Positions 8,947 through 35,002 of a stretch of 64,000 nt of DNA are shown here, piece by piece. The number at the start of each line of letters is the position of its first letter. Position 1 is the first letter of the stretch. Origin of the DNA: a virus (taxonomy: Duplodnaviria; Heunggongvirae; Uroviricota; Caudoviricetes); IMG/VR virus record IMGVR_UViG_2541047680_000004, one strand, 5' to 3'. Both the position numbers and the translations under genes were made by a program. The notes under the pieces are model-generated. The model did no database searches. It was not told the origin of the DNA and was given only the letters and a program-made list of their open reading frames with translations.

Positions 8947-9690
8947 TTACCATGTTCCCCATATAGGGTTTTCCAATAATCTCGCCTCCAACGAATTGGC
9001 TACTATTGCCGTTTGCAACGTTGGTTGGGGATAGTTTGCAAAGTCTGAATACTCATTTTCCTGCGTGACACGTTTATCTGCGGCATGTTTAACACCACTT
9101 GCTATGAAATGACGCATGATGCCCAACAGCCTCCGACTGTCTGCACTATCGTTTGCTAAAACATGAGGGAGCTGAAGTTCGATTTCTACCATTTCTCCAT
9201 ACTTACCAACAAACTGTAGTTTGTCCGCACTGTACTTTTTATCCCTCCTTTGGATAAGGAAACCAGTAAAAGCATCACCTGGCGATGCCAAACTATCCGC
9301 CCGCTTATTGGCAAGTCGAATAAGGTTCGTGAAAGCCATACAGAGATGCGCATCCATTGCCCCAAAGAACCCTTCGCTATTAATGTTAAGATCTTCAGTT
9401 TCATGGGTTGCGATAAACCCAGGTCCGACGTTGGGAAGATATCCCCCCTCAACAAAAGGATTAATCAAGATCGGCGCAATACATCCAGACGGCAGTGATT
9501 CCAAACTTTGCATCAATGGTGTCTCGGATATTAGACCAAGCAACGGGGCGAATTGTGCTTTGTCAATATTATTGCTGCCCCACAGAATACGTGGAGCCGC
9601 ACTATTGGAAGTATGCCCATTGATCAGTTTTATCGACTGCATCACTGCAAACACCTGCAAAAACTGCGAGCGGCTTAATTTAAACGACAT
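8947..9690 (-). CDS. hypothetical protein
   Basis: 247-aa ORF, start overlaps SbcC-like stop by 11 nt; no motif recognised. Confidence 0.4.
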   Translation of the reverse strand: MSFKLSRSQFLQVFAVMQSIKLINGHTSNSAAPRILWGSNNIDKAQFAPLLGLISETPLMQSLESLPSGCIAPILINPFVEGGYLPNVGPGFIATHETEDLNINSEGFFGAMDAHLCMAFTNLIRLANKRADSLASPGDAFTGFLIQRRDKKYSADKLQFVGKYGEMVEIELQLPHVLANDSADSRRLLGIMRHFIASGVKHAADKRVTQENEYSDFANYPQPTLQTAIVANSLEARLLENPIWGTW

Positions 9691-11596
9691 AGCTGCGCCC
9701 CTCTTTAACTTCCAGCGTAATAGTTTCGCGGAACCATGACTTCATCTCTTTATGGGAGATAATCAGCACAGTGCCCCGTTCGCGAGCTTTGGACTCCAGA
9801 ATACCCATGAGGCGTTCAAGACCGGCTGTATCGAGTGCATCGTCAATTTCGTCGCCGATAAACAAATCGATGTTTTTACTCGCCCGGTTACTAACCAGAT
9901 CCTGCAATGCCAAAGAACACGCAATGCGAACCTTCCGCTTCTCACCACCAGAGAGGGTCTGGAACGACTTACTTGAACCTTTCTTCTGCACACTAATGTT
10001 GAATTTGTCGCGATACTCACCTTTTTTAGTGACATCCATCGTCGACCACTCAGCAGTAATATTCCCGTCAGACAACGTATTGAGATACTCGGCTGTGCGT
10101 GTATTCAGGAAAGGCGTAACAGACGTCAAAATATGAGAACGCACCCCGGCAGGAGAGTAGACCTGACGAGCTTTTTCCAATAGCAACGTTTGTTCCTGAA
10201 TAGCCTTCAACTCATCTTTTAAGGACTTGAAGGTAGACTTACTGGATACCAGGTTATCTTCGTGTCTGGCGATAAGAGCAATAAACGGATTAATCTCTTT
10301 TGATATACGATCGACCTCAGTACGAGCACGAGTAACAAGAGACTCAATAGCAACAACCTCCTTCTCACGATGACGCAAAGATGAGAGTTGTTTAGTAAGT
10401 TCTTCAATCCGGGCAATGATAGCCGTTACATCAGGTGTCGTTTTAACAAGGGCAGACTCAATGCTTAACGCCTTCTCAAGATTCGTTTTGTGTTTAGCCA
10501 TTGCCTCTGCAAGTGTCTTCGCCTGACCAATTTCCTGACGTGCTTGTTCAATGAAATTCTCCTTCACCGTTGATAGATCTTTTTCGCAGTAGGCTTTGCC
10601 ACAAGTAGGGCATGGTGATCCTACTTTAGTACCAACCTCTTCTGCTTTGGTCTTAAAATTGCGCGCGCGGCTCATTGCATCAGCCTGACTATTTTCTGTA
10701 GCTTTGATGCTTGCCCGAATATCAGTTATCGCTCCACGCACTTTGAGCAACTTGGCGTCATGTTCTTCTTTTGAGGCTAACTTTTTGCGCTCACTTTCGA
10801 TTGCCTTCTCGGTATCACAGATCTGTTCGGGAAGAGTGCGGATCTCAAGTTCAACTTCTGTTAACTCAACTTCGGCACTTGCCAGCCCAGCCAGGGCATC
10901 GTCATAACGTTTAGAACGCTCTTGTTCCCATGATTCAGAGGAGGCTTTCGCGGACTCAATTTCTGACTGTGTTGCCTCAATGGTCGAGATTGTCGACTCC
11001 AATTTGGTTTTAACCACGTCCATACGTGCGGCAGCTGCGTTAGCTCGTTCACGAGCAATAGCGTAGGCGCGTGTCAGTCTGTCAACGCCAGCGGCTTCTT
11101 CTACGATGGTTTTGAGGTTTTTGTCGGACATTCCAGGTAGATCTGGCATAGCTTCTTGGCTTGCATAGATGGAAGCCATGAAAACCTCTTTAGATGCACC
11201 GATCAGACGTTCGACGAACTCTTGCGTCAGCGCATCTTTGCCTTTCGTCATATCGCCGTCTTCACCACGAACGATAAGCCGATTTTTGAACTCTTTGTGT
11301 TTACGGTGACGAATGATCGCATATCTCTTGCCTTCATCCTCGATGGTTACTGCAACACGACAGTTCTTTTCATGGTCGGTAGACAACACATCGTCCCCCT
11401 TCACACCATGAGCTGTTTCACCATAAAGACACCACATCAGGCTATTCATTAGAGTTGACTTTCCAGAGCCATTACTTGATGCGGAACTATCATCACTATT
11501 AACGCCCTGAATTAACACTAAACCACGCTGATCTAACTCGACCTCCGCGCTGGCGATAGCCATAAAATTCTCAACCTGGAGTTTTAAAAACTTCAT
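9680..11596 (-). CDS. SbcC/Rad50-like recombination ATPase
   Basis: N-terminal FMAIASAEVELD ... GVNSDDSSASSNGSGKST (Walker A), long central coiled coil with CPTCG zinc hook, C-terminal LSGGEKRKV signature and DE Walker B. Confidence 0.8.
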   Translation of the reverse strand: MKFLKLQVENFMAIASAEVELDQRGLVLIQGVNSDDSSASSNGSGKSTLMNSLMWCLYGETAHGVKGDDVLSTDHEKNCRVAVTIEDEGKRYAIIRHRKHKEFKNRLIVRGEDGDMTKGKDALTQEFVERLIGASKEVFMASIYASQEAMPDLPGMSDKNLKTIVEEAAGVDRLTRAYAIARERANAAAARMDVVKTKLESTISTIEATQSEIESAKASSESWEQERSKRYDDALAGLASAEVELTEVELEIRTLPEQICDTEKAIESERKKLASKEEHDAKLLKVRGAITDIRASIKATENSQADAMSRARNFKTKAEEVGTKVGSPCPTCGKAYCEKDLSTVKENFIEQARQEIGQAKTLAEAMAKHKTNLEKALSIESALVKTTPDVTAIIARIEELTKQLSSLRHREKEVVAIESLVTRARTEVDRISKEINPFIALIARHEDNLVSSKSTFKSLKDELKAIQEQTLLLEKARQVYSPAGVRSHILTSVTPFLNTRTAEYLNTLSDGNITAEWSTMDVTKKGEYRDKFNISVQKKGSSKSFQTLSGGEKRKVRIACSLALQDLVSNRASKNIDLFIGDEIDDALDTAGLERLMGILESKARERGTVLIISHKEMKSWFRETITLEVKEGRSYVV

Positions 11597-11825
11597 ATAA
11601 CACCTTTGATACCGTGTGTTAGCTTTTGACCTTCTTTCAATCTGAACTCCGTATGCGCCGGGAAGGATCTGCGCCTCAATACGCCTTTTCTGGTTAACCT
11701 TCCAAGATAAAACGCTACGGGATTTCCTTGTGGCGGGTAGGGCTTGTGAAACATCACCGTCTGGCCTCGTTCAAGTCTTTTCATCGTGATGGCAAAGTCT
11801 CGAAAGCTCCCATAACGACTTTGCC

Positions 11826-12941
11826 TCACACAGCCTCCGAACTCTCCGCTTCGGTGAGGATTTCCTGACACAAAATATCCAACTTGCTCAGATCAAATCC
11901 GCCGTCAGTATCGTGGACAATCTTGCAATAAGCAGATACCGACTCTCCCAGGCTATCGATTTTGCTGGTTTCCGTTGTGCTTGCTGTCCCTTCCATCATT
12001 GATGACTTACGGATGAAGTTGCACACAACACCTTTTGCACCCATTGTTTTGAGGATGTTCTGGTACTTAATGCCTTCTTCGTCGTTCTCGATTACGGCGC
12101 GGAAACGCACGTAGTTGCCGCGAATTTGGTCATCAGCAACATAATCTTCCAGGTTAATGAATTTAGGCGCACTGGTTTCGTAGTGACTGAAACTGCCGTC
12201 CGGGTTTACGATCATGTAACCAGCCAGAGATCCAACATCTCCCCAATTTTGATGGGTCAGTGCACCGACACTGATAACTCCAGGAATGACCTCTTTGTGG
12301 TTGTGGTAATGCCCACTAAGCACGAGACGAAAGCCGATATCCTTTAACTCCTGCGCATCGATACCGACGTCAGGCATTGTTGGAATGGCTTTGTTAATGG
12401 ATGTATGGATAACAACATCATGATTATCACCTTCTACGCTCTTACGTAATGCTTTCAGATCGCTGATAAGCTCTGCATGATTGTTACGCCAGCTAATCAG
12501 GTGGACAGTCACATCACCAATTTTTATTGAGTGTGGGCGCTTGCCACATACGATTACCACGCCGATAGAACTCAGCGATGCTGCTGCGTTGGCGCTATAT
12601 ACTGAATCGTTGGTTTCAAGATCGTGATTACCGGCCAGCATTACTACTGTCAGATCAAGCTCGTTGATAATCCACTTGTACGTTTCAGTTACGTAATGCA
12701 AAACAGAAGGGGACACAGTTCCTCGGACGTGAAATGTATCACCGGCAACCAACATGTACTTACAACCGGCCTTCTTCATGGCGATGGCTGCTTCTTTCGT
12801 TGCTTCCAACTGTATTTCAAGTCTGGAGTTAAGCCCCTCAGCGTTCGTCGTGGAGAACGCATCCCATTTGTGGTAGTGGCAGTCAGAAATGACGCCGTAT
12901 GGCAAAGTCATGTGTTTTTCCTTTGTGGTTATTTGATACAA
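11826..12941 (-). CDS. SbcD/Mre11-like nuclease (calcineurin-like phosphoesterase)
   Basis: Metallophosphatase motifs ISDCHYH, AGDTFH, GNHD and GHYH; upstream partner of the SbcC-like gene. Confidence 0.8.
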   Translation of the reverse strand: MYQITTKEKHMTLPYGVISDCHYHKWDAFSTTNAEGLNSRLEIQLEATKEAAIAMKKAGCKYMLVAGDTFHVRGTVSPSVLHYVTETYKWIINELDLTVVMLAGNHDLETNDSVYSANAAASLSSIGVVIVCGKRPHSIKIGDVTVHLISWRNNHAELISDLKALRKSVEGDNHDVVIHTSINKAIPTMPDVGIDAQELKDIGFRLVLSGHYHNHKEVIPGVISVGALTHQNWGDVGSLAGYMIVNPDGSFSHYETSAPKFINLEDYVADDQIRGNYVRFRAVIENDEEGIKYQNILKTMGAKGVVCNFIRKSSMMEGTASTTETSKIDSLGESVSAYCKIVHDTDGGFDLSKLDILCQEILTEAESSEAV

Positions 12942-13232
12942 ATCTTAAGCTTGCTCGAGAGGTGAGCAACCAAGACAGCACGGCACAGAAGAACATCAAC
13001 AGGCATAGTATTACAAAATAAATAGGTAAGTGAATACCTACCAAAATTGTTGAATGGATTGCTTACAAGGCGGCTAGAGTTTCATTGAAGTGCTTAGATG
13101 TATATGGTAGGCAAAAGTCTCATCGTTACATATGAATGAACTATCTCATGGGTCATGTATCATTTGATATTTTTATTATCAACAATTACTGTATAAGAGG
13201 AATTTTCCAAATTGAAAAAGGATTGATTATCA

Positions 13233-13490
13233 ATGGCTATTGATGAAAGAAATATTGTTGTTGGTGGATTGTACAAGACCCATACGAATCAAGAACGGGT
13301 CGTTCTAGAAATAAAAGATGATGAAGTGAAATACGCTCCTCGAGGTGGAAATGTAGAAAATAAATTTGACCATATGCAAAAAGCCAAATTGATCACATTT
13401 GCAGGAGCATGTTCAGAAAAAATTAAAGATTTACCCTCCGATGAATTTAATAAAATTCGACAACTATTTGTGGATAGAAAACTTATTTAA
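13233..13490 (+). CDS. hypothetical small protein (plus-strand moron-like)
   Basis: 85-aa ORF in AT-rich region, opposite strand to neighbours, followed by a terminator. Confidence 0.35.
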   Translation: MAIDERNIVVGGLYKTHTNQERVVLEIKDDEVKYAPRGGNVENKFDHMQKAKLITFAGACSEKIKDLPSDEFNKIRQLFVDRKLI

Positions 13491-13581
13491 ATAGTTGTAT
13501 TAGTTTTGAGGGTTTGTCTCTTAAAGGATTACCATTACTTGGATGAGTAAATTTTAAACAGGAAAAGTTCTAAAAGCCAAT

Positions 13582-13611
13582 GAGCGCCTATGTAACGAGC
13601 GCTCTTTTTTT
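13582..13611 (+). terminator. rho-independent terminator
   Basis: gagcgc ... gcgctc stem followed by T8 run. Confidence 0.5.
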
Positions 13612-13637
13612 GTTTGTGGATGGGCCTACTAAACCAT

Positions 13638-14291
13638 TTAAATCGTGTCGGAGGGCTTTTTACGCGCGTTACGCGCTGCGTTTATGCTTATGACGCCAGC
13701 TTTTGGACGTGGGTCAACAAGGTTAAGCTCTTCTTCACTGTGGTATTCGAGGTCGAACTCACGTTTTACATGTCTGATGTAGATTGCGGTGAGCAGGCTA
13801 TCTTTGGTTAGGAAGTGTCCGTAGGATTTGCGGATCACTTCTTCTACCTTCTCGATTTTCTCACCCCCCATACAGAGATGATTAAACCGGCTGTGTTTTC
13901 GCAACATTTCGTCTACTGGACCTGAGTAAACCTTGTCTACTTTCCCAAAACGGATGATTTTCCCTGTGTCTGCGGATACAAGGCAAATCAGCTTGTCTGG
14001 TGATAAACGATCTCGCCACGTCACACCTGAACGGAGTGTGTTGAAGTAGGGGGCATCCAATCCGATGATCGGTTTACGAAATGCGAGCAATGGAACGTAC
14101 CTGATGCAACTGTTTAAATGAAAATTCACACCAGCCTTATCAAGTTTAATTCTGGTTTCGTAGATCGGGCACTTCGCCGCTATACCGCAGATGTCACAAA
14201 GCAACTTCTGCTTATTCAGGTTGGAATTTGATTCGATAGTGTAGGAGCCGTCTTCAAGACGACGAACCCAGCGCGTGCGTTTTAGATCCAT
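13638..14291 (-). CDS. hypothetical protein
   Basis: 217-aa ORF with several Cys/His residues; no confident family assignment. Confidence 0.4.
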   Translation of the reverse strand: MDLKRTRWVRRLEDGSYTIESNSNLNKQKLLCDICGIAAKCPIYETRIKLDKAGVNFHLNSCIRYVPLLAFRKPIIGLDAPYFNTLRSGVTWRDRLSPDKLICLVSADTGKIIRFGKVDKVYSGPVDEMLRKHSRFNHLCMGGEKIEKVEEVIRKSYGHFLTKDSLLTAIYIRHVKREFDLEYHSEEELNLVDPRPKAGVISINAARNARKKPSDTI

Positions 14292-14490
14292 ATGTCATTT
14301 TTCTGTGATTGTTAGCCGAGGCAACGATAACCCACCAGGTGCGCCGAAGGTAGTAAATGCCTGTTTTAATTATTCACATATCCACAGGATAGATCCTAAT
14401 AAAGAGATCCATAGATAGATCCTTGTATAGATCAAATAAGATCCCCGATCGCTGTAAGCCGCGCCACGACTGGTCTGAAGCCATGTTCAT

Positions 14491-14593
14491 GTATGCTACC
14501 AGCGGTAATTGATAGTCTGTCAACGGTTCGCCGTATGCTGCCAACTGTTTTTGGTATGCTGCCAGCGGCAAATCAAGTATGCTGTCAGCGGTT
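14491..14593 (+). repeat. iteron cluster I (4 direct copies of a 16-bp repeat, consensus RTATGCTRYCAGCGGT)
   Basis: Copies at about 14491, 14533 (degenerate), 14554 and 14578; core GCTGNCAGC is itself palindromic. Confidence 0.8.
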
Positions 14594-14612
14594 GAATGAC
14601 AAAGGTGTCCAC

Positions 14613-15707
14613 ATGTCCACAAAAAATAAAAAAGGTAAAAATAACAAAGAAGTAGAAGATAATCTCGACAACTTTGAAGAAGGTTCCCTTGAATTGTACA
14701 CAGGGGAACTTGTCCCTAATAGCAACAATACAGTCCAACCAATTGCGTTGATGCGGCTGGGGTTGTTCGTGCCCACGCTCAAGGGGACAAAATACAGCAA
14801 GCGTAACAAGCCAAATGAGATCGATGCTTCAAAGGAGCTTGTTCAGCTCGAAGTAGCCCGTTCTGAAGGTTATTCCGATATCAAGATAACCGGTCCTCGT
14901 CTCGACATGGATCATGATTTCAAAACGTGGGTGGGCGTTGTGCGTTCGCTGGCAGAATACGGCGAACCTAACGGTCGTGTCGAGTTAAGCATCACGAAAT
15001 TTGCGAAGTTTTGTGGCTATCCATCGTCACAGATCCGCAAAACACTCCGCGACCGGCTTACAAACAGTCTTTTGAAGATCATGCGTACAACTCTGTCTTT
15101 TCAGAGAACGTATGAAGAAAAGAACGTCGACGGCTCTAACAAGATCTCGCTTCTGATGGTGCACCTCATCAATAGCGTGGACTACAACGAGCAGAAAGAT
15201 ACGGTGGTGTTCTATGCAGAACCGAAGCTGGCCGAACTATATCGCTTTGACCATAAGGTTCTTTTGCAGTTAAAGGTTATCAATAAGCTACCACGCAAAG
15301 AAACAGCACAGGCTCTGTACACCTTCATCGAAAGTCTTCCAACCAAGCCTGCGCCGGTATCGCTTGCTCGATTACGTGCGCGACTCAATTTGAGTAGCAG
15401 GAATGTCAGCTCGCAGAATCAGACTATACGTAACGGCTTAAAAGCTCTCCAAGATTTGGGCTATCTCGAATACAGCGAGATTAAGCGAGGGCGGTCGATC
15501 TATATCCAGATTCACAGCCGCAATCCAAAACTCAAAGTCGCACCGCCAAAACCTGAAGACATCGAACCCAAAAAACCAGATGAGAAAGCTGGGGAAATTG
15601 ATGCCAAACAGAACATTATCAACAAGATAACCGAACTTTCGCAGAATTTGACGCCTGAAAATATCAAGATGATTGAGATCCTTTCCAATAGTCTCAAACT
15701 GCTTTGA
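14613..15707 (+). CDS. putative iteron-associated DNA-binding / replication-initiator-like protein
   Basis: Plus-strand ORF (ATG at 14613; the ORF-track start 14493 lies inside the iterons) flanked on both sides by the 16-bp direct repeats; basic N-terminus; family not confirmed. Confidence 0.4.
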   Translation: MSTKNKKGKNNKEVEDNLDNFEEGSLELYTGELVPNSNNTVQPIALMRLGLFVPTLKGTKYSKRNKPNEIDASKELVQLEVARSEGYSDIKITGPRLDMDHDFKTWVGVVRSLAEYGEPNGRVELSITKFAKFCGYPSSQIRKTLRDRLTNSLLKIMRTTLSFQRTYEEKNVDGSNKISLLMVHLINSVDYNEQKDTVVFYAEPKLAELYRFDHKVLLQLKVINKLPRKETAQALYTFIESLPTKPAPVSLARLRARLNLSSRNVSSQNQTIRNGLKALQDLGYLEYSEIKRGRSIYIQIHSRNPKLKVAPPKPEDIEPKKPDEKAGEIDAKQNIINKITELSQNLTPENIKMIEILSNSLKLL

Positions 15708-15824
15708 TATGCTGTCAGCGGTGAAATGTATGCTATCAGCGGCTATTTTTCTGAAAAGTATGCTGTGAACGGTTAAAGATATGCTACCAGCGGTATAGTG
15801 AGATAAACGTATGCTGTGAGCGGT
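15708..15824 (+). repeat. iteron cluster II (5 direct copies, 21/30-bp spacing)
   Basis: Copies at about 15708, 15728, 15758, 15779 and 15809, same orientation as cluster I. Confidence 0.8.
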
Positions 15825-15984
15825 AAATCATCTATCACCACTCAATGCTCTGGCATACCTCCCCAGTGGTTACTAACCTCGAAGAGTGCATTCCATATAG
15901 GTTTGCGCTCACTAACATTCTATTGCCGTTGCGCTGATTGCTTGTAGTGAAAGGCATTTATTGCCTGCTGCTCCCTGATAGAAC

Positions 15985-16239
15985 GTATGCTGTCAGCGGT
16001 GTTTTATTGAGGAATTTTTGTTTGGATATGCTATCAGCGGTAATTAATGGTATATGTCAGACCTTCGTATGCTGCCAGCGGTAATTTTGTTCTGGTTATA
16101 ACCATACCGGTACACATTATTCATGCAATGTCTTAAGTATGCTGTCAGCGGTAAAAAATCGAGTAAAGTATGCTGTGAGCGGTGAGATAAACTCTCGATA
16201 TGCTATCAGCGGTAATTGATTGTGTATGCTGTCAGCGGT
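15985..16239 (+). repeat. iteron cluster III (7 direct copies)
   Basis: Copies at about 15985, 16026, 16067, 16137, 16168, 16198 and 16224, spaced 26 to 70 bp. Confidence 0.8.
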
Positions 16240-16255
16240 GACGACTATGAAATAT

Positions 16256-16277
16256 GACTGCGGCACGTGCCGCAGTC
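16256..16277 (-). terminator. perfect 22-bp palindrome, terminator-like
   Basis: gactgcggcac/gtgccgcagtc; directly downstream of the minus-strand gene ending at 16287. Confidence 0.45.
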
Positions 16278-16286
16278 AGTTTGCAT

Positions 16287-16499
16287 TTAGTGTATTTTCT
16301 TTAACAGACCCCAAAGTGTTCCGGCTTTTGTAGTCAGTTTTCCTGTTTCTGGATCGTACATACGCCATTCACGCCGCTGGTGGACGATATACCCATCTTC
16401 ACGTTCCAGACGCTCAAGAATGCCAGGCTGCTTGAAACCCTTAGCACGCCAGTAGCCGCTTGTTTTCTCGATTTCCAGACCTGCCAGTGTTAATGCCAT
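16287..16499 (-). CDS. hypothetical protein
   Basis: 70-aa ORF, start coupled to the stop of the upstream gene. Confidence 0.35.
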   Translation of the reverse strand: MALTLAGLEIEKTSGYWRAKGFKQPGILERLEREDGYIVHQRREWRMYDPETGKLTTKAGTLWGLLKKIH

Positions 16500-16834
16500 T
16501 ATCCAACCTCCTTGCAGTCATCGAAAAGGTAGCTTTGCTGAGAAGCGTGAACGCCATAGAAGCCCTTGTATTTGTTGTATACGAAGTGGTCTTCTCCGAC
16601 GCCGGTTAATTTGCCATTACGGTTTGTGAGATATGGGGATGACAATACTCGATCGTCACGCACTACATAGAACTGGTCGCCGCTGTCTACGACCATCGCG
16701 CCATATGGTGCTTTTATGACGTCGGTAAAAGCGCCATTCTTAATGTCGGCTACAGACATTTCACACTGATAAACAGTGGTGTCGGCCACAACGATCGAAG
16801 AAAGGAACAACAAAGCGAATGGGATGGCCTTCAT
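16499..16834 (-). CDS. secreted hypothetical protein (signal peptide)
   Basis: N-terminal MKAIPFALLFLSSIVVA looks like a Sec signal peptide. Confidence 0.45.
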   Translation of the reverse strand: MKAIPFALLFLSSIVVADTTVYQCEMSVADIKNGAFTDVIKAPYGAMVVDSGDQFYVVRDDRVLSSPYLTNRNGKLTGVGEDHFVYNKYKGFYGVHASQQSYLFDDCKEVG

Positions 16835-17010
16835 GCTGCCACCTCTTTGATTACATCAAATGCTGAATTAAATACGAGCACGATAGCCAAAGCGTTTATG
16901 ACTACTTCGTTCACCGGGGAAAATACTTTACGAATGACACCAGTGAAAATGCAGTCGATGACAAAAGCTATTGACACGATGAGTAACAAGTATTCAATAA
17001 AAATCTTCAT
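16831..17010 (-). CDS. small hydrophobic membrane protein (below ORF-track size cutoff)
   Basis: Manual translation gives a 57-aa hydrophobic peptide (MKIFIEYLLLIVSIAFVIDCIF ...); its TGA overlaps the ATG of the 16499..16834 gene. Confidence 0.3.
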   Translation of the reverse strand: MKIFIEYLLLIVSIAFVIDCIFTGVIRKVFSPVNEVVINALAIVLVFNSAFDVIKEVAA

Positions 17011-17049
17011 GATAGGTAGATACTAACTTATATAAATTTTACTGTAAAC

Positions 17050-17325
17050 TCACTCAAAAGTGCTGATGCTTAAAATACGCTCAAGATGTGCGGCATCTTC
17101 ATCACTGATTTGTTGAGTCTCTTCTACGTACCAACAGTTGCCGTTATGCCAACAAACACCATCATCATCAACCATCACTGAATCAGCGTCATGACCTGTA
17201 TATTCAACGAGAATGTGCTGGATCAGCGCGTCAGTTTCTTCGTCGTTAAGGCCATCGGCTTTGACCATAAAAAGCGGAAACACGTCATAGACAGTGCTGG
17301 TAACGATTCGAACTAAAACTCTCAT
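17050..17325 (-). CDS. hypothetical acidic protein
   Basis: 91-aa ORF preceded by the conserved translation-initiation sequence (finding at 12942-12975). Confidence 0.4.
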   Translation of the reverse strand: MRVLVRIVTSTVYDVFPLFMVKADGLNDEETDALIQHILVEYTGHDADSVMVDDDGVCWHNGNCWYVEETQQISDEDAAHLERILSISTFE

Positions 17326-17380
17326 GTGTTTTTCCTTTTGTGGTTAGTGTTTACTTATTTTGTTAGTTATGAATAGGCGA

Positions 17381-17806
17381 TCAATCTTCTTGTTTAGGGA
17401 AAAACTGTTCAATAACTCTGTCAACGGCTGTGTCTATATGGAGTAGATGCCACACAACCATATCTTTGCTTCCCATGCCTTGTGTGAATATCACGTCATA
17501 CTTACGCCATGCGCAGTGGAACCAATATGCTGAGTCATCAATTGGTAAATCCTCTCCCGCCTCTTTGAAGTATTTCAGCAGCATTGCCTGCTCTGCCGTT
17601 GGCGTTGGACCTATTTCCTGAGCGTACATACGGATGAATCGCTGCCAGTCTGTCTCGTCGGGGGTTGGATCTGGTGGGGTCATTTCTGCGATAGCGTTTC
17701 GTAGCTGATGCGCCCAATCAGGTTCAGGAAAGCCTTTTGCTACTTCATCATCAATAACATCCAGAGCCACGTTTGCGGCATCGTAGAGTTTCTTAATAGC
17801 TGCCAT
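17381..17806 (-). CDS. hypothetical protein
   Basis: 141-aa ORF; palindromic motif B immediately upstream. Confidence 0.4.
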   Translation of the reverse strand: MAAIKKLYDAANVALDVIDDEVAKGFPEPDWAHQLRNAIAEMTPPDPTPDETDWQRFIRMYAQEIGPTPTAEQAMLLKYFKEAGEDLPIDDSAYWFHCAWRKYDVIFTQGMGSKDMVVWHLLHIDTAVDRVIEQFFPKQED

Positions 17807-31165: not shown

Positions 31166-32263
31166 AAAATTTACACGAATAAGCTCTGTTGATAGACGAT
31201 CTCCCTTAAATTTGTGGTCAATTTCGTCTAAATCCGGTTGCTCTACGATTGATGCGATGTACGTCGAGAAACTTTCTAAGGCGTCTCGCATCTCGTCCAT
31301 ATAATCGTGCCGGTCGTAGACCCGATCTATCCCCTCAAGACTGTGGTTCATGATTTTACGTGATACCTCCTGGCTTATGCCTAATGCTGGGAAGTAACTA
31401 CGCGCAGTACGGCGCAAATCTCGGGGTGTAAATGGCTCAAGCTCCATCAGTTCTGGTCGTTCCAGAATACGACGTAATGCCTGGGCTATTGCCACTTTAG
31501 ACATAGGAAGGTCTTTCCCGATTTTTTTATTCGAAGGCACGAGCCACTGGCTGTCTTTACCGTATTCGAACAACTCTTCAATGCATGTGCGCATTAATGT
31601 GCTTAAAGGCAGCGAATGCTCACGTGCTGACTTGTTTCTCTTGCCTTGATTCCAAACCCCACGCTTAAGATTGAACTCACTTTTTTTAGCCCGCAGTACT
31701 TCGTCAGGTCGTCTTGCTGATACAAGACACAGTCTGGCCGCCCATTTTGTACCAGCGCACACATTGAAGTAGTCCCATATATTCCAGAACACCCATACCT
31801 CTGCGTCAGTCAGCTTCCGCTCGCGGGGCGTGGGCTTTGCGCCACCGGCAACTTTGTTAAGTGACATATCGTTTAACGGTGACACGTCTATCATCCCCTG
31901 GAAGGCGCACCAGCTAAGGAACTGCTTCATCAGAGAGAAAACGCGGCGGCCCATAACAATTTTGCCATCCAGTATTAGTGGGTTGACCAGTTGGTTCACC
32001 ATGAACCTATTAATGTCACTTACTTTTACATCGGCAATGTGCGGCAAAACATGTATCAAAATACAATGAACAGCGATCTCTGGCCGACGTCTGGTTATCA
32101 GCAGAGATAAGCGAGTGAATAACAGGAATGCGTCCGAGAATCTCATGTCATTGCTGACCTGGGAGATCATAACGGCCTGCATTTGAGATGCTCTTTCGAG
32201 ATACTCTATCGCCTCTTTTGAGGTGTTCTCCGCAGCGCGTGCTCTGTCAAAGCTATTTTTCAT
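31160..32263 (-). CDS. tyrosine site-specific recombinase (integrase/Cre/Xer family)
   Basis: C-terminal catalytic signature: R..PDEVLR, HSLP, PRDLRRTARSY (box II), IMNHS, VYDRHDY (nucleophile Tyr). Confidence 0.75.
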   Translation of the reverse strand: MKNSFDRARAAENTSKEAIEYLERASQMQAVMISQVSNDMRFSDAFLLFTRLSLLITRRRPEIAVHCILIHVLPHIADVKVSDINRFMVNQLVNPLILDGKIVMGRRVFSLMKQFLSWCAFQGMIDVSPLNDMSLNKVAGGAKPTPRERKLTDAEVWVFWNIWDYFNVCAGTKWAARLCLVSARRPDEVLRAKKSEFNLKRGVWNQGKRNKSAREHSLPLSTLMRTCIEELFEYGKDSQWLVPSNKKIGKDLPMSKVAIAQALRRILERPELMELEPFTPRDLRRTARSYFPALGISQEVSRKIMNHSLEGIDRVYDRHDYMDEMRDALESFSTYIASIVEQPDLDEIDHKFKGDRLSTELIRVNFS

Positions 32264-32361
32264 ATGACAATCACCGAGTTACGCCGATGCACTGTATAAG
32301 TAAACAGTATATTAGGCATAGATTCTTATAGGATCAAGAGTAAAAGTAACTCATTTTCAGC

Positions 32362-32396
32362 AATGATTCCATACATAGTAGGTATGGAATCATTTT
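32362..32396. promoter_or_regulatory. lox/dif-like candidate recombination site: 13-bp inverted arms with 7-bp spacer
   Basis: aatgattccatac-atagtag-gtatggaatcatt, perfect inverted repeat about 100 bp upstream of the tyrosine recombinase gene. Confidence 0.5.
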
Positions 32397-32473
32397 GACG
32401 TTGTTTTTTGAATTTTAAGGGAAATGGGAGTGAGTTTGGTGGGAATAAAAACGGCTCCTGTGAGCCGTTAAAA

Positions 32474-32719
32474 TCAGAGGGTGCTGACGTATGCAGCCAG
32501 TTCTGTGTATCCGCCAATCGGCTGGCCTTCGATCAGCACCTGGGGGATAGTCTCTACCGGTTTACCAACAATTTCACTTAGTTTTTCCTTGTCGATACCG
32601 GCAGTGGTGATGTCGATGTACTCATAATCACCGTAGCCATGTCCCTTTAGTTGCTTCGCTAGCTCGACCGCACGTTTGCAGTATGAGCAGTTATCTCGTC
32701 CGTAGATAGTGATCGTCAT
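32474..32719 (-). CDS. glutaredoxin / NrdH-like redoxin
   Basis: MTITIYGRDNCSYCKRA with CxxC active site near the N-terminus and thioredoxin-fold length; start taken at the internal Met with GAGG RBS. Confidence 0.7.
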   Translation of the reverse strand: MTITIYGRDNCSYCKRAVELAKQLKGHGYGDYEYIDITTAGIDKEKLSEIVGKPVETIPQVLIEGQPIGGYTELAAYVSTL

Positions 32720-32893
32720 TGTTACCTCATAGAATTGATATGCAACTTTACTCACAAAGAAGATAGGTATGTGCATACTTATCTTTGCAGTCTGCATTAT
32801 AAAGCTATTAAAGCCTCGATCAATCTATTAATTAAGGCATTGTTTGGTTAACATTACCCTAATATTTTATAGTTAGTAGAGTGAAATACATAC

Positions 32894-34156
32894 ATGCCTT
32901 TTTTAATTTTCATTATTATACTACTGCTCACCGTGATTTTTTGGGATTGGGTTGTTTTAAATGGTCAAATTGTTGGAACATTGGCTACAGCATTTGCTTT
33001 TATAGCAACAGCATGGAATGCCTACGAAGCGAGAAAAAGTGCAAAAGCAGCTTTTTCAGCCCTTCAATTAACAACAGAATCATTGTTCGAAATGCGAAAG
33101 AGTGCATTTAAACAATGGTTTGATTCCTTATTAAATCAACATGATGAGCTATGTCTTCTTGCAAAACAAATTATCGATAAACGCAAAATTAATTTAAACA
33201 GCGATGAGTTACATAGACTATATTACCCATTGGTAAAACAGCATGAGGTAATACAGTATGTGAAGCATATTATTAATATTTTTGAGTATGTGGATAGTTC
33301 ATTTTATATTGATGGGGAATGTCTAAAGGAAAAAAGAGCGTATGTGTCACAATTAATTTTCAAAATCCCACCTCAGATGAAGTTGATCATTGCTATCTTT
33401 GGATTAAAGATCGATTATTGTGAACATATTAATTCGGGAAAACTGTGTTGTTTATTAAATAAATATGATTTTTTCAATGATGAAATATTTTTTGATGATG
33501 CTTATTCAGATATGCCTTATCTGGATGCATTCATAAACCTTAGATTCAACAAAATATTCAAATCTCGAATGATAAATTATTTTGATAATATCATTAAAAG
33601 TTATTATGTTCCATCGGACGTTAAAAGGGACTGGATGTTTCGAGACCCAAAGCTCGTACCGTCGGTTCTTATGAATTATAAAACTCCTTGTTCTCCTATA
33701 ATTAATGATTACTTTGAGAAGTTGCCTTTACATGTAAGAAACTACTTTGAGGAACTACTTAAAACCGCGAATGATAGAGTTACTCATTTTGACGTTTACA
33801 TCCCACGCCTTATTGGTTGTTCAATCGTGCAACATTACGAAGATGTGCCTTCCGAAAAAAACAGGTTAAATGACAGGAATGATGTAATAGCTATGGCTGA
33901 AGATTACATCGAGAAAAGAAAATCTAATCAACTAGATTACATACTTGAAGATATATACTTCAAGAGTGACGAAGATATAATCCCAGGCCACCATTTGATT
34001 GTGGCATTTGATGACTATGAATTTAAATTATCACTCATTAAGATAAATGAGAATAAAGATAGCGATAATCTTTTAAATCGAATTTATACTGAATCCAGTA
34101 GCATGGTTAAAGAATATAAGCGCGAAATATTAAAACTGGGCGACTATGTAAAGTAA
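32894..34156 (+). CDS. AT-rich membrane-anchored hypothetical protein (candidate accessory/defence-type gene)
   Basis: 420-aa ORF on the opposite strand to its neighbours; two N-terminal hydrophobic helices; sequence visibly more AT-rich than flanking genes; own terminator downstream. Confidence 0.5.
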   Translation: MPFLIFIIILLLTVIFWDWVVLNGQIVGTLATAFAFIATAWNAYEARKSAKAAFSALQLTTESLFEMRKSAFKQWFDSLLNQHDELCLLAKQIIDKRKINLNSDELHRLYYPLVKQHEVIQYVKHIINIFEYVDSSFYIDGECLKEKRAYVSQLIFKIPPQMKLIIAIFGLKIDYCEHINSGKLCCLLNKYDFFNDEIFFDDAYSDMPYLDAFINLRFNKIFKSRMINYFDNIIKSYYVPSDVKRDWMFRDPKLVPSVLMNYKTPCSPIINDYFEKLPLHVRNYFEELLKTANDRVTHFDVYIPRLIGCSIVQHYEDVPSEKNRLNDRNDVIAMAEDYIEKRKSNQLDYILEDIYFKSDEDIIPGHHLIVAFDDYEFKLSLIKINENKDSDNLLNRIYTESSSMVKEYKREILKLGDYVK

Positions 34157-34174
34157 ATTGCACTGTTCAACAAA

Positions 34175-34200
34175 AAAGGGGCCGAAGCCCCTTTGAATTT
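34175..34200 (+). terminator. rho-independent terminator
   Basis: aaggggc-cgaa-gcccctt hairpin followed by tgaatttt. Confidence 0.55.
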
Positions 34201-34348
34201 TGCGCTGAAAAAAGTGTTGCTAGGATGTTAGCAAGCTATGGTTAAGAACGTCTGCCGTAATTATCTATCACAGCGTTGAGCGGTCTGGTTTATGTTAGCG
34301 GAGTCTTAATCGAGTTGATTAAAAGGCCAAACCGCTCAACGCTGTGTC

Positions 34349-34435
34349 TGGCGGAGAGTAATGGAATCGAACCATCATCGTTTGCACAATGGGACGGTTT
34401 TCAAGACCGCTTGAGCACCATGCTCCCTACTCTCC
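34349..34435 (-). tRNA. tRNA-Ser (anticodon UGA), long variable arm
   Basis: Manual fold of the reverse complement: acceptor ggagagt/actctcc, anticodon loop cuUGAaa, T-arm ggttcgattcc, encoded CCA; about 87 nt. Confidence 0.6.
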
Positions 34436-34755
34436 AGCTATTGTGATGGTCGGTGCTGAACTCCGACACAGGGTTGTAGCAAGCCCCGCAAAGCGCGCAC
34501 TACTGTAGTTGCGGCACATCAGCCTGTGCATTCATCACAATGGTAAGATCACTACCTTTCGACCAGTCATTGTGCACATGAACGACGATTAACCGTAATG
34601 ATATTATCGTTGTGTTGTGAAGCCAGATGCTTATCTTCTGGTTGCTTCAAAGAGCTGCACTTCCTCACAACGGTAAGAGCACTGGTCTGACTCTATCGAT
34701 TTACGGCCTTGTGGGTCAGTATCGCCGATTCGCCCAATGCTCTTACCTGTTGTGT

Positions 34756-34831
34756 TGGTGCCGGTTAACGGACTTGAACCGCTGGCCATTCGCTTACAAA
34801 ACGACTGCTCTACCAACTGAGCTAAACCGGC
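34756..34831 (-). tRNA. tRNA-Thr (anticodon UGU)
   Basis: Reverse complement gccggtttagctcagttggtagagc ... ttUGUaa ... ggttcaagtcc ... aaccggcacca; one mismatch at the top of the anticodon stem. Confidence 0.55.
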
Positions 34832-34835
34832 AATT

Positions 34836-34922
34836 TGGTGGGGAGTGATGGAGTCGAACCACCCGAGTCGCCATGACAGTAGATTTACAGTCTACACCGC
34901 TACCTCTACGGACTAACTCCCC
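34836..34922 (-). tRNA. tRNA-Tyr (anticodon GUA), long variable arm
   Basis: Reverse complement ggggagt ... actGUAaatc ... ggttcgactcc ... actccccacca. Confidence 0.6.
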
Positions 34923-34927
34923 TAAAT

Positions 34928-35002
34928 TGGCGATGGTGGGTGGATTCGAACCACCGACCAGTTGGTTAACAGCCAACTGCTCTACCGCTGAGCTACACCA
35001 TC
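34928..35002 (-). tRNA. tRNA-Asn (anticodon GUU)
   Basis: Reverse complement gatggtgtagctcagcggtagagc ... ctGUUaa ... ggttcgaatcc ... caccatcgcca. Confidence 0.65.

What the first reader, a model, noticed from the sequence alone, without database searches (positions are those of the whole stretch)
14491..16277. Sixteen direct 16-bp iterons flanking a plus-strand Rep-like ORF: candidate plasmid-type replication origin
A 16-bp motif (consensus RTATGCTRYCAGCGGT, with a palindromic GCTGNCAGC core) occurs 16 times in the same orientation within about 1.75 kb: 4 copies just upstream of and overlapping the annotated 5' end of the 14613..15707 ORF, 5 copies starting at its stop codon with alternating 21/30-bp spacing, and 7 more about 160 bp further on. 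The block is closed by a perfect 22-bp palindrome at 16256-16277. Direct repeats at helical-turn spacings around a DNA-binding protein gene are the hallmark of iteron-controlled theta origins (plasmid Rep, lambda O). The enclosed ORF is on the opposite strand to nearly everything else in the window.
Basis: partly seen in the sequence, partly recalled or inferred. Interest (0 to 1): 0.8.

Follow-up and report, generated by a model that had tools for sequence, protein, structure and literature searches.

The report
P1/RepFIB-type plasmid origin of phage-plasmid
The repeats are real and mark the ordinary, already catalogued low-copy plasmid replication module (initiator gene flanked by its binding sites) of a pECOH89/SSU5-like E. 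coli phage-plasmid, built like the textbook origin of phage P1.

Summary
Sixteen copies of RTATGCTRYCAGCGGT (17 with a degenerate in-phase copy at 14512), all on the + strand, flank the ORF 14613-15707; 0.2 are expected by chance.

- **Protein:** the ORF is a Rep_3/WH1-WH2 initiator, 46% identical to P1 RepA and 52% to RepFIB RepA.
- **Layout:** it matches P1 oriR-repA-incA part for part. There are two tandem DnaA boxes, six GATC (Dam) sites in AT-rich heptamers, and five iterons spaced 21/21/21/23 bp. The rep gene follows, then a downstream iteron array that starts at the stop codon.
- **Origin homology:** the left half of the origin is 73% identical in nucleotides to P1 oriR.
- **Covariation:** relatives with diverged Rep proteins carry correspondingly changed iterons.
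- **Database status:** the locus is 99% identical to more than 100 E. coli and E. albertii plasmids, including pECOH89. pECOH89-like plasmids are typed IncFIB(H89-PhagePlasmid).
- **Palindrome:** the 22-bp palindrome is a lineage-specific hairpin at the end of the convergent minus-strand operon. It is not a conserved origin part.
- **GC skew:** uninformative.

Function is inferred by homology. It is a theta origin for the plasmid prophage, with copy-number control by RepA titration and handcuffing. Interest is low.

The parts
14370..14386 (+). Two tandem DnaA-box-like 9-mers (TTATTCACA, ATATCCACA) at the outer end of the origin
   Evidence: Each has 1 mismatch to TTATCCACA. They are the only such pair within 30 bp of each other in 64 kb. 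They are conserved in relatives and align with the annotated DnaA site of P1 oriR.
14392..14450 (.). Six GATC (Dam) sites in AT-rich (A)GATCC heptamers; the predicted unwinding and SeqA-sequestration region
   Evidence: There are 6 GATC sites in 59 bp, and no other 60-bp stretch of the window has more than 2; the segment is 63% A+T. Relatives keep 5-6 of the GATC sites at near-identical spacing. The stretch aligns with the five annotated Dam sites of P1 oriR.
14458..14473 (+). Conserved G+C-rich spacer GCCGCGCCACGACTGG between the GATC cluster and the iterons
   Evidence: GCCGCGCCACG is identical in P1 oriR and in the window's three closest relatives; the Rosenbergiella locus L007 differs there. 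The following CTGG is also shared. Its function was not tested.
14491..14592 (+). Origin iterons, five copies (14491, 14512 degenerate, 14533, 14554, 14577), spaced 21/21/21/23 bp; equivalent to P1 incC; the rep promoter is expected here
   Evidence: P1 incC has the same number at almost the same spacing (21/21/21/22). The Klebsiella, Rosenbergiella and pCFSAN004177P_01 relatives show all five copies at 21/21/21/23. In L008 and L009 four were detected in the same frame (21/42/23), the middle copy falling below the mismatch limit. No + strand consensus promoter was found.
14605..14621 (+). Weak tandem DnaA-box-like sequence GTGTCCACATGTCCACA overlapping the rep start codon
   Evidence: In relatives it reads GTATCCACATGTCCACA, where the first box has 1 mismatch. 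P1 has a DnaA box (CTATCCACA) at the same side of its iterons. In the window each box has 2 mismatches, so this part is weak.
14613..15707 (+). rep (repA), 364 aa, iteron-binding WH1-WH2 initiator of the P1 RepA / RepFIB family
   Evidence: Pfam Rep3_N, 37.5 bits against a cut-off of 22.4. 46% identical to P1 RepA and 52% to RepFIB RepA. Fold matches RctB, RepE and TrfA. The ATG at 14613 is conserved across relatives, whereas the annotated start at 14493 lies inside iteron 1.
15707..15824 (+). Downstream (control, incA-like) iterons, cluster 1: five copies spaced 21/30/21/30 bp, the first starting at the last base of the stop codon
   Evidence: P1 incA also starts at the last base of repA. The same holds in Klebsiella relatives and pCFSAN004177P_01.
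15825..15984 (.). 160-bp spacer without iterons; holds the conserved motif CAGTGGTTACTAACCT (15864-15879)
   Evidence: The motif is present in Klebsiella relatives, but there it lies after the second cluster. It is unique in the window. No Rfam match. Function unknown.
15985..16239 (+). Downstream (control) iterons, cluster 2: seven copies spaced 41/41/70/31/30/26 bp
   Evidence: Copy number varies in nature: phage PhiR41_1 lacks the last three through an 87-bp iteron-to-iteron deletion. The downstream total ranges from 4 to 12 among relatives.
16255..16278 (.). 24-bp perfect palindrome; hairpin and probable bidirectional terminator between rep with its iterons (+) and the convergent minus-strand operon ending at 16287
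   Evidence: The terminator-like scan hits both strands. The RNA hairpin folds at -21.8 and -20.1 kcal/mol, z -3.7 and -4.5. It lies 9 nt beyond the stop codon of the 70-aa minus-strand gene. It has one mismatch in PhiR41_1 and is absent in Klebsiella relatives.

Best explanation
This is the plasmid-prophage replicon of a pECOH89/SSU5-like E. coli phage-plasmid. It is an iteron-controlled theta origin of the P1 oriR / RepFIB type.

**Proposed mechanism (inferred by homology to P1, F and RepFIB, not shown here)**
- RepA monomers (ORF 14613-15707) bind the five iterons at 14491-14592. These are phased two helical turns apart.
- With host DnaA at the tandem boxes (14370-14386, and weaker boxes at 14605-21), they open the adjacent AT-rich stretch that carries six Dam sites (14392-14450). 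The host replisome is loaded there.
- RepA bound to the origin iterons also represses its own promoter.
- The twelve downstream iterons (15707-16239) are not needed for initiation. They titrate RepA and pair with origin iterons ('handcuffing'), in cis and between sister copies.
- This keeps the copy number low and determines incompatibility.
- After initiation the hemimethylated GATC cluster would be sequestered by SeqA.

**What is shown and what is inferred**
- Shown here: the sequence anatomy, the protein family and fold, nucleotide homology of the origin core to P1 oriR, Rep-iteron covariation, and that this is the only typed replicon on the complete circular plasmids inspected.
- Inferred: binding, the site of opening, Dam and DnaA dependence, and handcuffing.
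For: **Repeats**
- The repeats are non-random and in one orientation: 16 to 17 copies against 0.2 expected.

**Rep protein**
- Pfam Rep3_N scores above its cut-off.
- It is 46% identical to P1 RepA over 278 aa (E 4e-86) and 52% identical to RepFIB RepA over 317 aa (E 9e-111).
- The AF2 model (pLDDT 71.5; 80-92 over most of residues 80-200) has best PDB matches to RctB domains 2-3, RepE, a WH1 Rep and TrfA.

**Match to the annotated P1 map**
- Both have two DnaA boxes and 5-6 GATC sites.
- Both have 5 iterons, spaced 21/21/21/22 in P1 and 21/21/21/23 here.
- In both, the rep gene is followed by a control array that starts at the stop codon.
- The left origin half is 73% identical in nucleotides to P1 oriR, against 39% over the iteron part.

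**Covariation**
- Klebsiella relatives with 79-88% identical Rep keep the iteron.
- L008 (Rep 61% identical) has the same phage backbone, but all copies on both sides of rep follow the changed consensus TCTATTCTGTAGGCGGT.
- SSU5 (Rep 48%) uses CTATCCACTGTAG, and P1 uses GATGTGTGCTGGAGGGA.

**Portability and sole-replicon status**
- The same module sits next to parAB on an ordinary 34.7-kb plasmid and in a Rosenbergiella contig.
- It is the only replicon typed (rep_cluster_488) on complete circular records: pEC881_2, pECOH89, and a 63.8-kb E. albertii derivative.

**Literature**
- pECOH89-like plasmids are typed IncFIB(H89-PhagePlasmid) (PMC12838234).
- RepA of pECOH89 was noted in 2014 (PMC3999498).
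- RepFIB has upstream origin iterons and downstream control iterons that act by handcuffing (PMC11983097).
Against: - No experiment on this replicon was found in the searchable library. Function rests on homology.
- No consensus sigma-70 promoter was found on the + strand within the iterons.
- The window's DnaA boxes each carry one mismatch, and those at the start codon carry two.
- GC skew gives no origin signal, either in the window or in the complete relative pECOH89.
- All 12 downstream iterons are direct, whereas six of the nine in P1 incA are inverted. The geometry of pairing may therefore differ.
- The element also encodes its own DnaE, primase and DnaB-like helicase. A second, lytic origin probably exists elsewhere, so this locus need not be the only origin.
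Confidence: 0.93

Rival explanations
1. The locus is, or also serves as, the lytic-phase origin of the phage, in the manner of lambda ori/O, rather than the plasmid-maintenance origin.
For: - The element is a functional phage type: 98% identical to Escherichia phage PhiR41_1.
- It carries many replication genes, including DnaE, primase, a DnaB-like helicase and ligase.
- Iterons around an initiator gene also occur at lambdoid origins (general knowledge).
Against: - The iterons flank the initiator gene instead of lying inside it.
- The protein belongs to the P1 RepA / RepFIB plasmid family, and no lambda-O-type family was hit.
- The identical module maintains non-phage plasmids with parAB and ccdAB and a 63.8-kb deletion derivative.
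- P1, the closest characterised system, uses a separate lytic replicon. This rests on established knowledge and was not tested here.
Confidence: 0.04
2. The repeats are a partition centromere or a transcriptional operator array for a protein other than Rep, and their position next to rep is coincidental.
For: - Plasmid centromeres are also arrays of short direct repeats.
- The ParB-domain genes lie far away in pECOH89 (67-69 kb), so their site is unassigned.
Against: - The repeat sequence changes together with Rep, on both sides of the gene, while the surrounding backbone stays the same (L008 against L009).
- The number, 21-bp phasing and position of the repeats copy the RepA-binding sites mapped in P1.
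- The module travels with rep into unrelated plasmids whose par genes differ.
Confidence: 0.02
3. The upstream set is the origin, but the 12 downstream copies are functionally neutral repeat expansions, not a control locus.
For: - The downstream copy number is very variable: 4, 7, 9 or 12.
- A viable phage, PhiR41_1, lacks three copies.
Against: - A downstream array starting at the stop codon is present in every relative examined, and in P1 and RepFIB.
- The core positions stay conserved.
- In RepFIB the downstream block alone displaces the replicon (PMC11983097).
Confidence: 0.05

Closest known systems
Phage P1 plasmid replicon (oriR - incC - repA - incA)
   Same: - RepA is 46% identical.
- Both have tandem DnaA boxes, a cluster of Dam GATC heptamers and a GC-rich spacer. 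This stretch is 73% identical in nucleotides.
- Both have five origin iterons about 21 bp apart, immediately upstream of repA.
- In both, the control array begins at the repA stop codon, with spacings of about 30 to 41 bp.
- Both are the plasmid-prophage replicon of a phage-plasmid.
   Different: - The iteron sequence differs: a 16-bp core RTATGCTRYCAGCGGT here against the 19-bp GATGTGTGCTGGAGGGAAA of P1.
- There are 12 downstream copies in two clusters, all direct. P1 has 9 (3 direct, 6 inverted).
- Rep has about 30 extra N-terminal and 55 extra C-terminal residues.
- No parAB operon follows the array; a convergent phage operon does.
- The host phage is an SSU5-like siphovirus, not a P1-like myovirus.
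RepFIB replicon of IncF plasmids (P307, F, pO157)
   Same: - It holds the closest Rep among those compared: 52% identical over 317 aa, including the C-terminal tail.
- The rep gene is flanked by upstream origin iterons and downstream control iterons, with a DnaA site (PMC11983097).
- pECOH89-like plasmids are typed as an IncFIB subtype, IncFIB(H89-PhagePlasmid) (PMC12838234).
   Different: - The iteron sequence differs, and RepFIB iterons are less exactly repeated.
- RepFIB Rep starts at a CTG codon (PMC11983097). Here a conserved ATG is the likely start.
- The carrier is a phage-plasmid backbone rather than a conjugative F-like plasmid.
Klebsiella IncpKPHS1 / SSU5-like phage-plasmid replicon
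   Same: - Rep is 85-88% identical.
- The iteron, the DnaA/GATC/5-iteron layout and the neighbouring phage genes are the same.
   Different: - It has 9 downstream iterons (4+5) with an 87-bp gap, no terminal palindrome, and the CAGTGGTYACTAACCT motif placed after the array.
- The published description lists only four iterons downstream of repA and says that RepA matched no known domain superfamily (PMC6735626). Both statements are superseded.
Salmonella phage SSU5 / pLF82-type replicon
   Same: - The phage backbone and the position of rep between the same neighbouring genes are the same.
- The DnaA-box and six-GATC block is the same.
   Different: - Rep is only 48% identical, and the iteron is different (CTATCCACTGTAG, some copies inverted).
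- It is a different replicon allele at the same locus. PMC3999498 likewise reports that pECOH89 RepA is 48% similar to that of pLF82.

Membership tests
Rep_3 / iteron-type plasmid initiators (Pfam PF01051) | Significant match to the WH1 domain model | tested here: met
   Rep3_N scores 37.5 bits against a gathering cut-off of 22.4, E 3.9e-9, residues 118-239. All 120 listed homologues carry PF01051.
Rep_3 / iteron-type plasmid initiators (Pfam PF01051) | Tandem winged-helix (WH1-WH2) fold | tested here: met
   The AF2 model has mean pLDDT 71.5, with a well-modelled core. Foldseek against the PDB gives top hits to RctB domains 2-3 (E 8.5e-8), RepE dimer-DNA (8.7e-5), a WH1 Rep and a RepE54 co-crystal, with TrfA further down. 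Sequence-only searches of the PDB found nothing.
Rep_3 / iteron-type plasmid initiators (Pfam PF01051) | Directly repeated binding sites (iterons) next to the gene, with specificity that covaries with the protein | tested here: met
   There are 17 direct copies. The iteron consensus changes together with Rep divergence in L008, SSU5 and P1.
Rep_3 / iteron-type plasmid initiators (Pfam PF01051) | Rep binds the iterons and supports autonomous replication | not testable with these tools
   This needs EMSA or footprinting and a mini-replicon assay.
P1 oriR-repA-incA / RepFIB replicon class | Initiator homologous to P1 RepA and RepFIB RepA over its full core | tested here: met
   46% identity over 278 aa (E 4e-86) and 52% over 317 aa (E 9e-111).
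P1 oriR-repA-incA / RepFIB replicon class | Five origin iterons about two helical turns apart, directly upstream of rep | tested here: met
   Copies at 14491, 14512, 14533, 14554 and 14577, spaced 21/21/21/23; P1 has 21/21/21/22.
P1 oriR-repA-incA / RepFIB replicon class | Tandem DnaA boxes at the outer end of the origin | tested here: met
   TTATTCACA and ATATCCACA at 14370 and 14378, one mismatch each. They are conserved in relatives and align to the P1 DnaA site.
P1 oriR-repA-incA / RepFIB replicon class | Cluster of Dam (GATC) sites in AT-rich heptamers between the DnaA boxes and the iterons | tested here: met
   Six GATC sites in 59 bp, unique in the window. The stretch aligns to the five annotated P1 Dam sites. 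Methylation dependence itself is not testable here.
P1 oriR-repA-incA / RepFIB replicon class | Second, dispensable iteron array downstream of rep acting as the copy-control and incompatibility locus | tested here: inconclusive
   The array is present and starts at the stop codon, as in P1. Its control function is inferred, not tested. All copies are direct, unlike P1 incA.
P1 oriR-repA-incA / RepFIB replicon class | rep promoter embedded in the origin iterons (autorepression) | tested here: inconclusive
   The consensus scan finds no + strand promoter in 14200-14620. The position is inferred from P1.
Lambda-type origin (initiator O with iterons inside its own gene) | Iterons located within the initiator coding sequence, and an O-protein family match | tested here: not met
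   All iterons lie outside 14613-15704, apart from one weak inverted 3-mismatch match at 14945-14960. Only Rep3_N and PHROG 775 were hit.
Plasmid partition centromere (parS/parC-type repeats) | Repeat array adjacent to and co-inherited with a parAB/parMR operon | tested here: not met
   No par gene lies next to the array in the window. The ParB-domain genes of pECOH89 are about 45 kb away. The repeats follow rep into plasmids with other par systems.

The most novel reading that the evidence does not exclude
The evidence does not exclude that this replicon has a control layer absent from P1 and RepFIB.

- The unusually large, all-direct, two-cluster downstream array (12 copies) is one candidate part.
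- The conserved non-iteron motif CAGTGGTTACTAACCT lies in or next to the array.
- An 18/19-nt inverted repeat links iteron 3 to the rep coding region.

Together these might couple plasmid copy number to the phage's lysis-lysogeny state, for example through a phage- or host-encoded factor that binds the motif and releases handcuffing on induction. Natural gain and loss of iterons (4 to 12 copies) could then tune copy number, and with it the dosage of cargo genes such as blaCTX-M-15.
Probability: 0.1. Interest if true: 0.5.

Novelty: already known. Interest (0 to 1): 0.15.

Why it matters
Very little would change. The locus is the maintenance replicon of a widespread family of E. coli, E. albertii and Klebsiella phage-plasmids that sometimes carry blaCTX-M-15.

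A precise map of the origin has some practical uses:
- correcting the annotated Rep start;
- designing curing or incompatibility cassettes, for which the downstream array is the obvious tool by analogy with RepFIB;
- interpreting copy-number variants.

It does not reveal a new mechanism. It shows that the P1-type origin core is shared by an unrelated phage lineage and has been re-fitted with different Rep and iteron specificities.

Tried and rejected
- **GC skew, window.** There is no sign change at the locus.
- **GC skew, complete relative pECOH89.** The cumulative skew falls monotonically, because nearly all genes lie on one strand. Its extremes reflect only the record's start point. The test is uninformative, neither for nor against.
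- **Sequence-only searches for solved relatives.** A single sequence and a 40-sequence profile returned only chance hits. The fold search was needed.
- **NCBIfam.** No model matched Rep.
- **Rfam, 13000-17500.** Nothing at E<=1, so there is no known antisense-RNA control element.
- **Promoter scan.** No + strand consensus promoter lies in the iterons. My manual attempts to place -35/-10 hexamers gave unsatisfactory spacings, so I make no promoter call.
- **Palindromic iteron core as a dimer site.** Rejected, because the symmetry is lost in covarying relatives.
- **22-bp palindrome as an origin boundary or cruciform.** Rejected as a conserved part. It has a mismatch in PhiR41_1 and is absent in Klebsiella relatives. 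It sits at the end of the convergent operon and folds as a terminator-like hairpin.
- **18/19-nt inverted repeat, 14525-14543 against 14950-14968.** It is not conserved, with only 12-14 of 19 matching in relatives. I left it as unexplained.
- **Preprint on phage-plasmid heteroresistance.** A 2026 preprint (10.64898/2026.08.19.745698) might bear on copy-number control, but it could not be opened.
Full report
**1. The observation**

The motif RTATGCTRYCAGCGGT, allowing two mismatches, occurs 16 times in the 64-kb window. All copies are on the + strand and lie between 14491 and 16239. Dinucleotide-preserving shuffles give 0.21 matches on average and never more than two.

The grouping is as reported.
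- Four copies lie upstream of the ORF.
- Five copies start at 15707, the last base of the TGA stop codon, with spacings 21/30/21/30.
- After a 160-bp gap, seven more run from 15985 to 16239.

Allowing three mismatches adds a degenerate copy at 14512. It sits exactly in the 21-bp register. The upstream set is therefore five copies spaced 21/21/21/23.

A position matrix of the 17 copies shows a 16-bp informative core followed by a weak AA.

The palindrome is real (16255-16278, 10 pairs and a 4-nt loop).

- Two tandem DnaA-box-like 9-mers sit at 14370 and 14378. They are the only such pair lying within 30 bp of each other in the window.
- Six GATC sites lie within 14392-14450. No other 60-bp stretch of the window has more than two.

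**2. What the window is**

The 2.1-kb locus is 99% identical to more than 100 complete plasmids of E. coli, E. albertii and Shigella. It is 98% identical to Escherichia phage PhiR41_1.

The rest of the window matches the same elements, including pECOH89. That is a 111.7-kb 'phage-like plasmid' related to Salmonella phage SSU5 (PMC3999498).

pECOH89 has the same 17 iterons at identical spacings. pECOH89-like plasmids are typed IncFIB(H89-PhagePlasmid) (PMC12838234). Typing tools are reported to include SSU5-group IncFIB rep genes (bioRxiv 10.1101/2025.09.12.675607).

RefSeq annotates the ORF as 'RepB family plasmid replication initiator protein'.

**3. The protein**

The 364-aa product matches Pfam Rep3_N (the WH1 domain) above the curated cut-off. 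It is 46% identical to P1 RepA (E 4e-86) and 52% identical to RepFIB RepA (E 9e-111).

Sequence searches of the PDB found nothing. An AlphaFold model built on 40 homologues has mean pLDDT 71.5, with a well-modelled core. Its best PDB matches are RctB domains 2-3, RepE bound to DNA, a WH1 Rep domain and a RepE54 co-crystal, with TrfA further down the list. All of these are origin-binding initiators.

The ATG at 14613 and the following codons are conserved in relatives. The start annotated in RefSeq (14493, 404 aa) lies inside iteron 1. The 364-aa form is therefore the likely product.

The PHROG label 'replication helicase' for this family is a misnomer.

**4. Anatomy compared with P1**

The curated P1 record annotates the following parts in order.
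- A DnaA site.
- Five Dam sites.
- Five RepA-binding incC iterons, spaced 21/21/21/22 bp.
- The repA promoter inside those iterons.
- repA itself.
- Nine incA iterons, the first starting at the last base of repA.

The window has the same parts in the same order. The stretch from the DnaA boxes through the GATC heptamers to the block GCCGCGCCACG..CTGG aligns with P1 oriR at 73% nucleotide identity. Identity falls to 39% over the iterons.

The origin core is therefore homologous to P1 oriR. The specificity determinants, Rep and its iterons, have diverged.

**5. Relatives and covariation**

- Klebsiella phage-plasmids of the pKPHS1 type (Rep 79-88% identical) keep the same iteron and layout, with nine downstream copies.
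- L008 has the same phage backbone as a Klebsiella-type relative, but a Rep only 61% identical. All of its iteron copies, on both sides of rep, follow the consensus TCTATTCTGTAGGCGGT.
- SSU5 (Rep 48%) uses CTATCCACTGTAG, and P1 uses GATGTGTGCTGGAGGGA.
- The module also occurs next to parAB and ccdAB on a 34.7-kb plasmid, and next to parAB in a Rosenbergiella contig. In both it keeps the DnaA/GATC/5-iteron arrangement.
- It is the only typed replicon on pEC881_2, pECOH89 and a 63.8-kb E. albertii derivative.

This concerted change of the repeats with the protein, and the module's portability, are the strongest in-silico evidence that the repeats are Rep's binding sites and that the module is a self-sufficient replicon.

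**6. Mechanism (inferred)**

The mechanism follows from homology with P1, mini-F and RepFIB (PMC11983097 and the references in it).
- RepA monomers on the five phased iterons, together with DnaA, open the AT-rich Dam-site region for replisome loading.
- Binding at the same iterons autorepresses rep.
- The downstream array titrates RepA and handcuffs origin iterons. This sets a low copy number and determines incompatibility.
- Hemimethylated GATC sites would delay re-initiation.

None of these steps was tested here.

The differences from P1 are as follows.
- The iteron sequence differs.
- There are 12 downstream copies instead of 9, all direct, in two clusters.
- Rep has longer termini. RepFIB shares the C-terminal tail.
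- No par operon lies downstream.

The downstream copy number varies in nature from 4 to 12. One example is an 87-bp iteron-to-iteron deletion in PhiR41_1.

**7. The palindrome**

It lies 9 nt beyond the stop codon of the 70-aa minus-strand gene. That gene was matched to an annotated 'P1 Cra protein'.

The palindrome folds as a strong hairpin on both strands (z -3.7 and -4.5). The terminator scan flags it on both strands.

It carries a mismatch in PhiR41_1 and is absent from Klebsiella relatives. I read it as a bidirectional terminator or insulator between convergent transcription units. It is not a defining origin part.

**8. Tests that did not help**

- GC skew shows no switch at the locus. 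In complete pECOH89 it is monotonic, because almost all genes share a strand.
- Rfam found no match.
- NCBIfam found no match.
- No + strand consensus promoter was found in the iterons.

**9. Verdict**

The element is an ordinary P1/RepFIB-class iteron replicon. It is already in the databases and in replicon-typing schemes.

What appears undescribed in the papers I could search is only the fine map. For the Klebsiella sister group, PMC6735626 listed just four downstream iterons and reported no known domain in RepA.

Interest is low.

Noticed in passing
window 14525-14543 and 14950-14968: An 18/19-nt inverted repeat links the spacer plus iteron 3 to a segment inside rep (codons about 113-118, SLAEYGEP). 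By my own estimate that is far more than chance for these two stretches. Relatives match at only 12-14 of 19 positions, so it is lineage-specific and unexplained.
   Followed up: partly
window 15864-15879 (and 15908-15916): The non-iteron motif CAGTGGTTACTAACCT contains the near-palindrome GGTTAcTAACC. A second ...CTCACTAAC lies about 40 bp further on, in the 160-bp gap between the two downstream iteron clusters. Klebsiella relatives have the same motif, but after the second cluster. It is unique in the window. It may be a binding site for an unknown factor.
   Followed up: partly
window 16137-16223; L002 (PhiR41_1) about 4040: Phage PhiR41_1 lacks three downstream iterons through an 87-bp deletion between iterons. 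Across relatives the downstream copy number runs from 4 to 12. This is a natural series for testing copy-number control.
   Followed up: partly
window 14493-14612: The RefSeq/PGAP start of Rep (14493, 404 aa) lies inside iteron 1 and reads through the origin iterons. The conserved ATG at 14613 is the likely true start, giving 364 aa. The same over-extension appears in many database entries of 393-407 aa.
   Followed up: yes
L006 (SSU5) 780-848 and 1169-1293: SSU5 has a different Rep allele and a different iteron. It still carries the same DnaA-box plus six-GATC block, but about 430 bp further from rep, and a second group of GATC sites lies nearer its own iterons. This suggests that the rep-iteron cassette was exchanged within a conserved origin frame.
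   Followed up: partly
L008 vs L009 (loci from public assemblies): Two contigs have identical GATC positions over about 1.8 kb upstream of rep, which implies a near-identical backbone there. Their Rep proteins are 61% and 79% identical to the window's, and their iterons differ. This is a natural replicon swap within one phage-plasmid lineage.
   Followed up: partly
pECOH89 96014-96607 (L011 46014-46607), about 1.2 kb outside the window's left end by my estimate: The element family encodes its own phage N6-adenine methyltransferase, called dam in PMC3999498. It could keep the six-GATC origin cluster methylated independently of the host.
   Followed up: no
window 9680-12941: SbcC-like (638 aa) and SbcD-like (371 aa) palindrome-specific nuclease genes lie about 1.5 kb upstream of the origin, on the minus strand. 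Their proximity to a locus carrying a perfect 24-bp palindrome is noted only as a curiosity.
   Followed up: no
window 32000-35000: A low-GC island (36-39% against about 46%) with positive GC skew contains a 420-aa + strand ORF (32894-34156). It is probably an accessory insertion.
   Followed up: no
L013 (E. albertii p2014C-4015-1) and similar about 62-kb records: A set of about 62 to 64-kb E. albertii plasmids carries this replicon at 99.2% identity. In the one inspected (p2014C-4015-1) it is the only typed replicon, and an IS911 lies nearby. They look like deletion derivatives of the phage-plasmid that persist as plain plasmids.
   Followed up: partly
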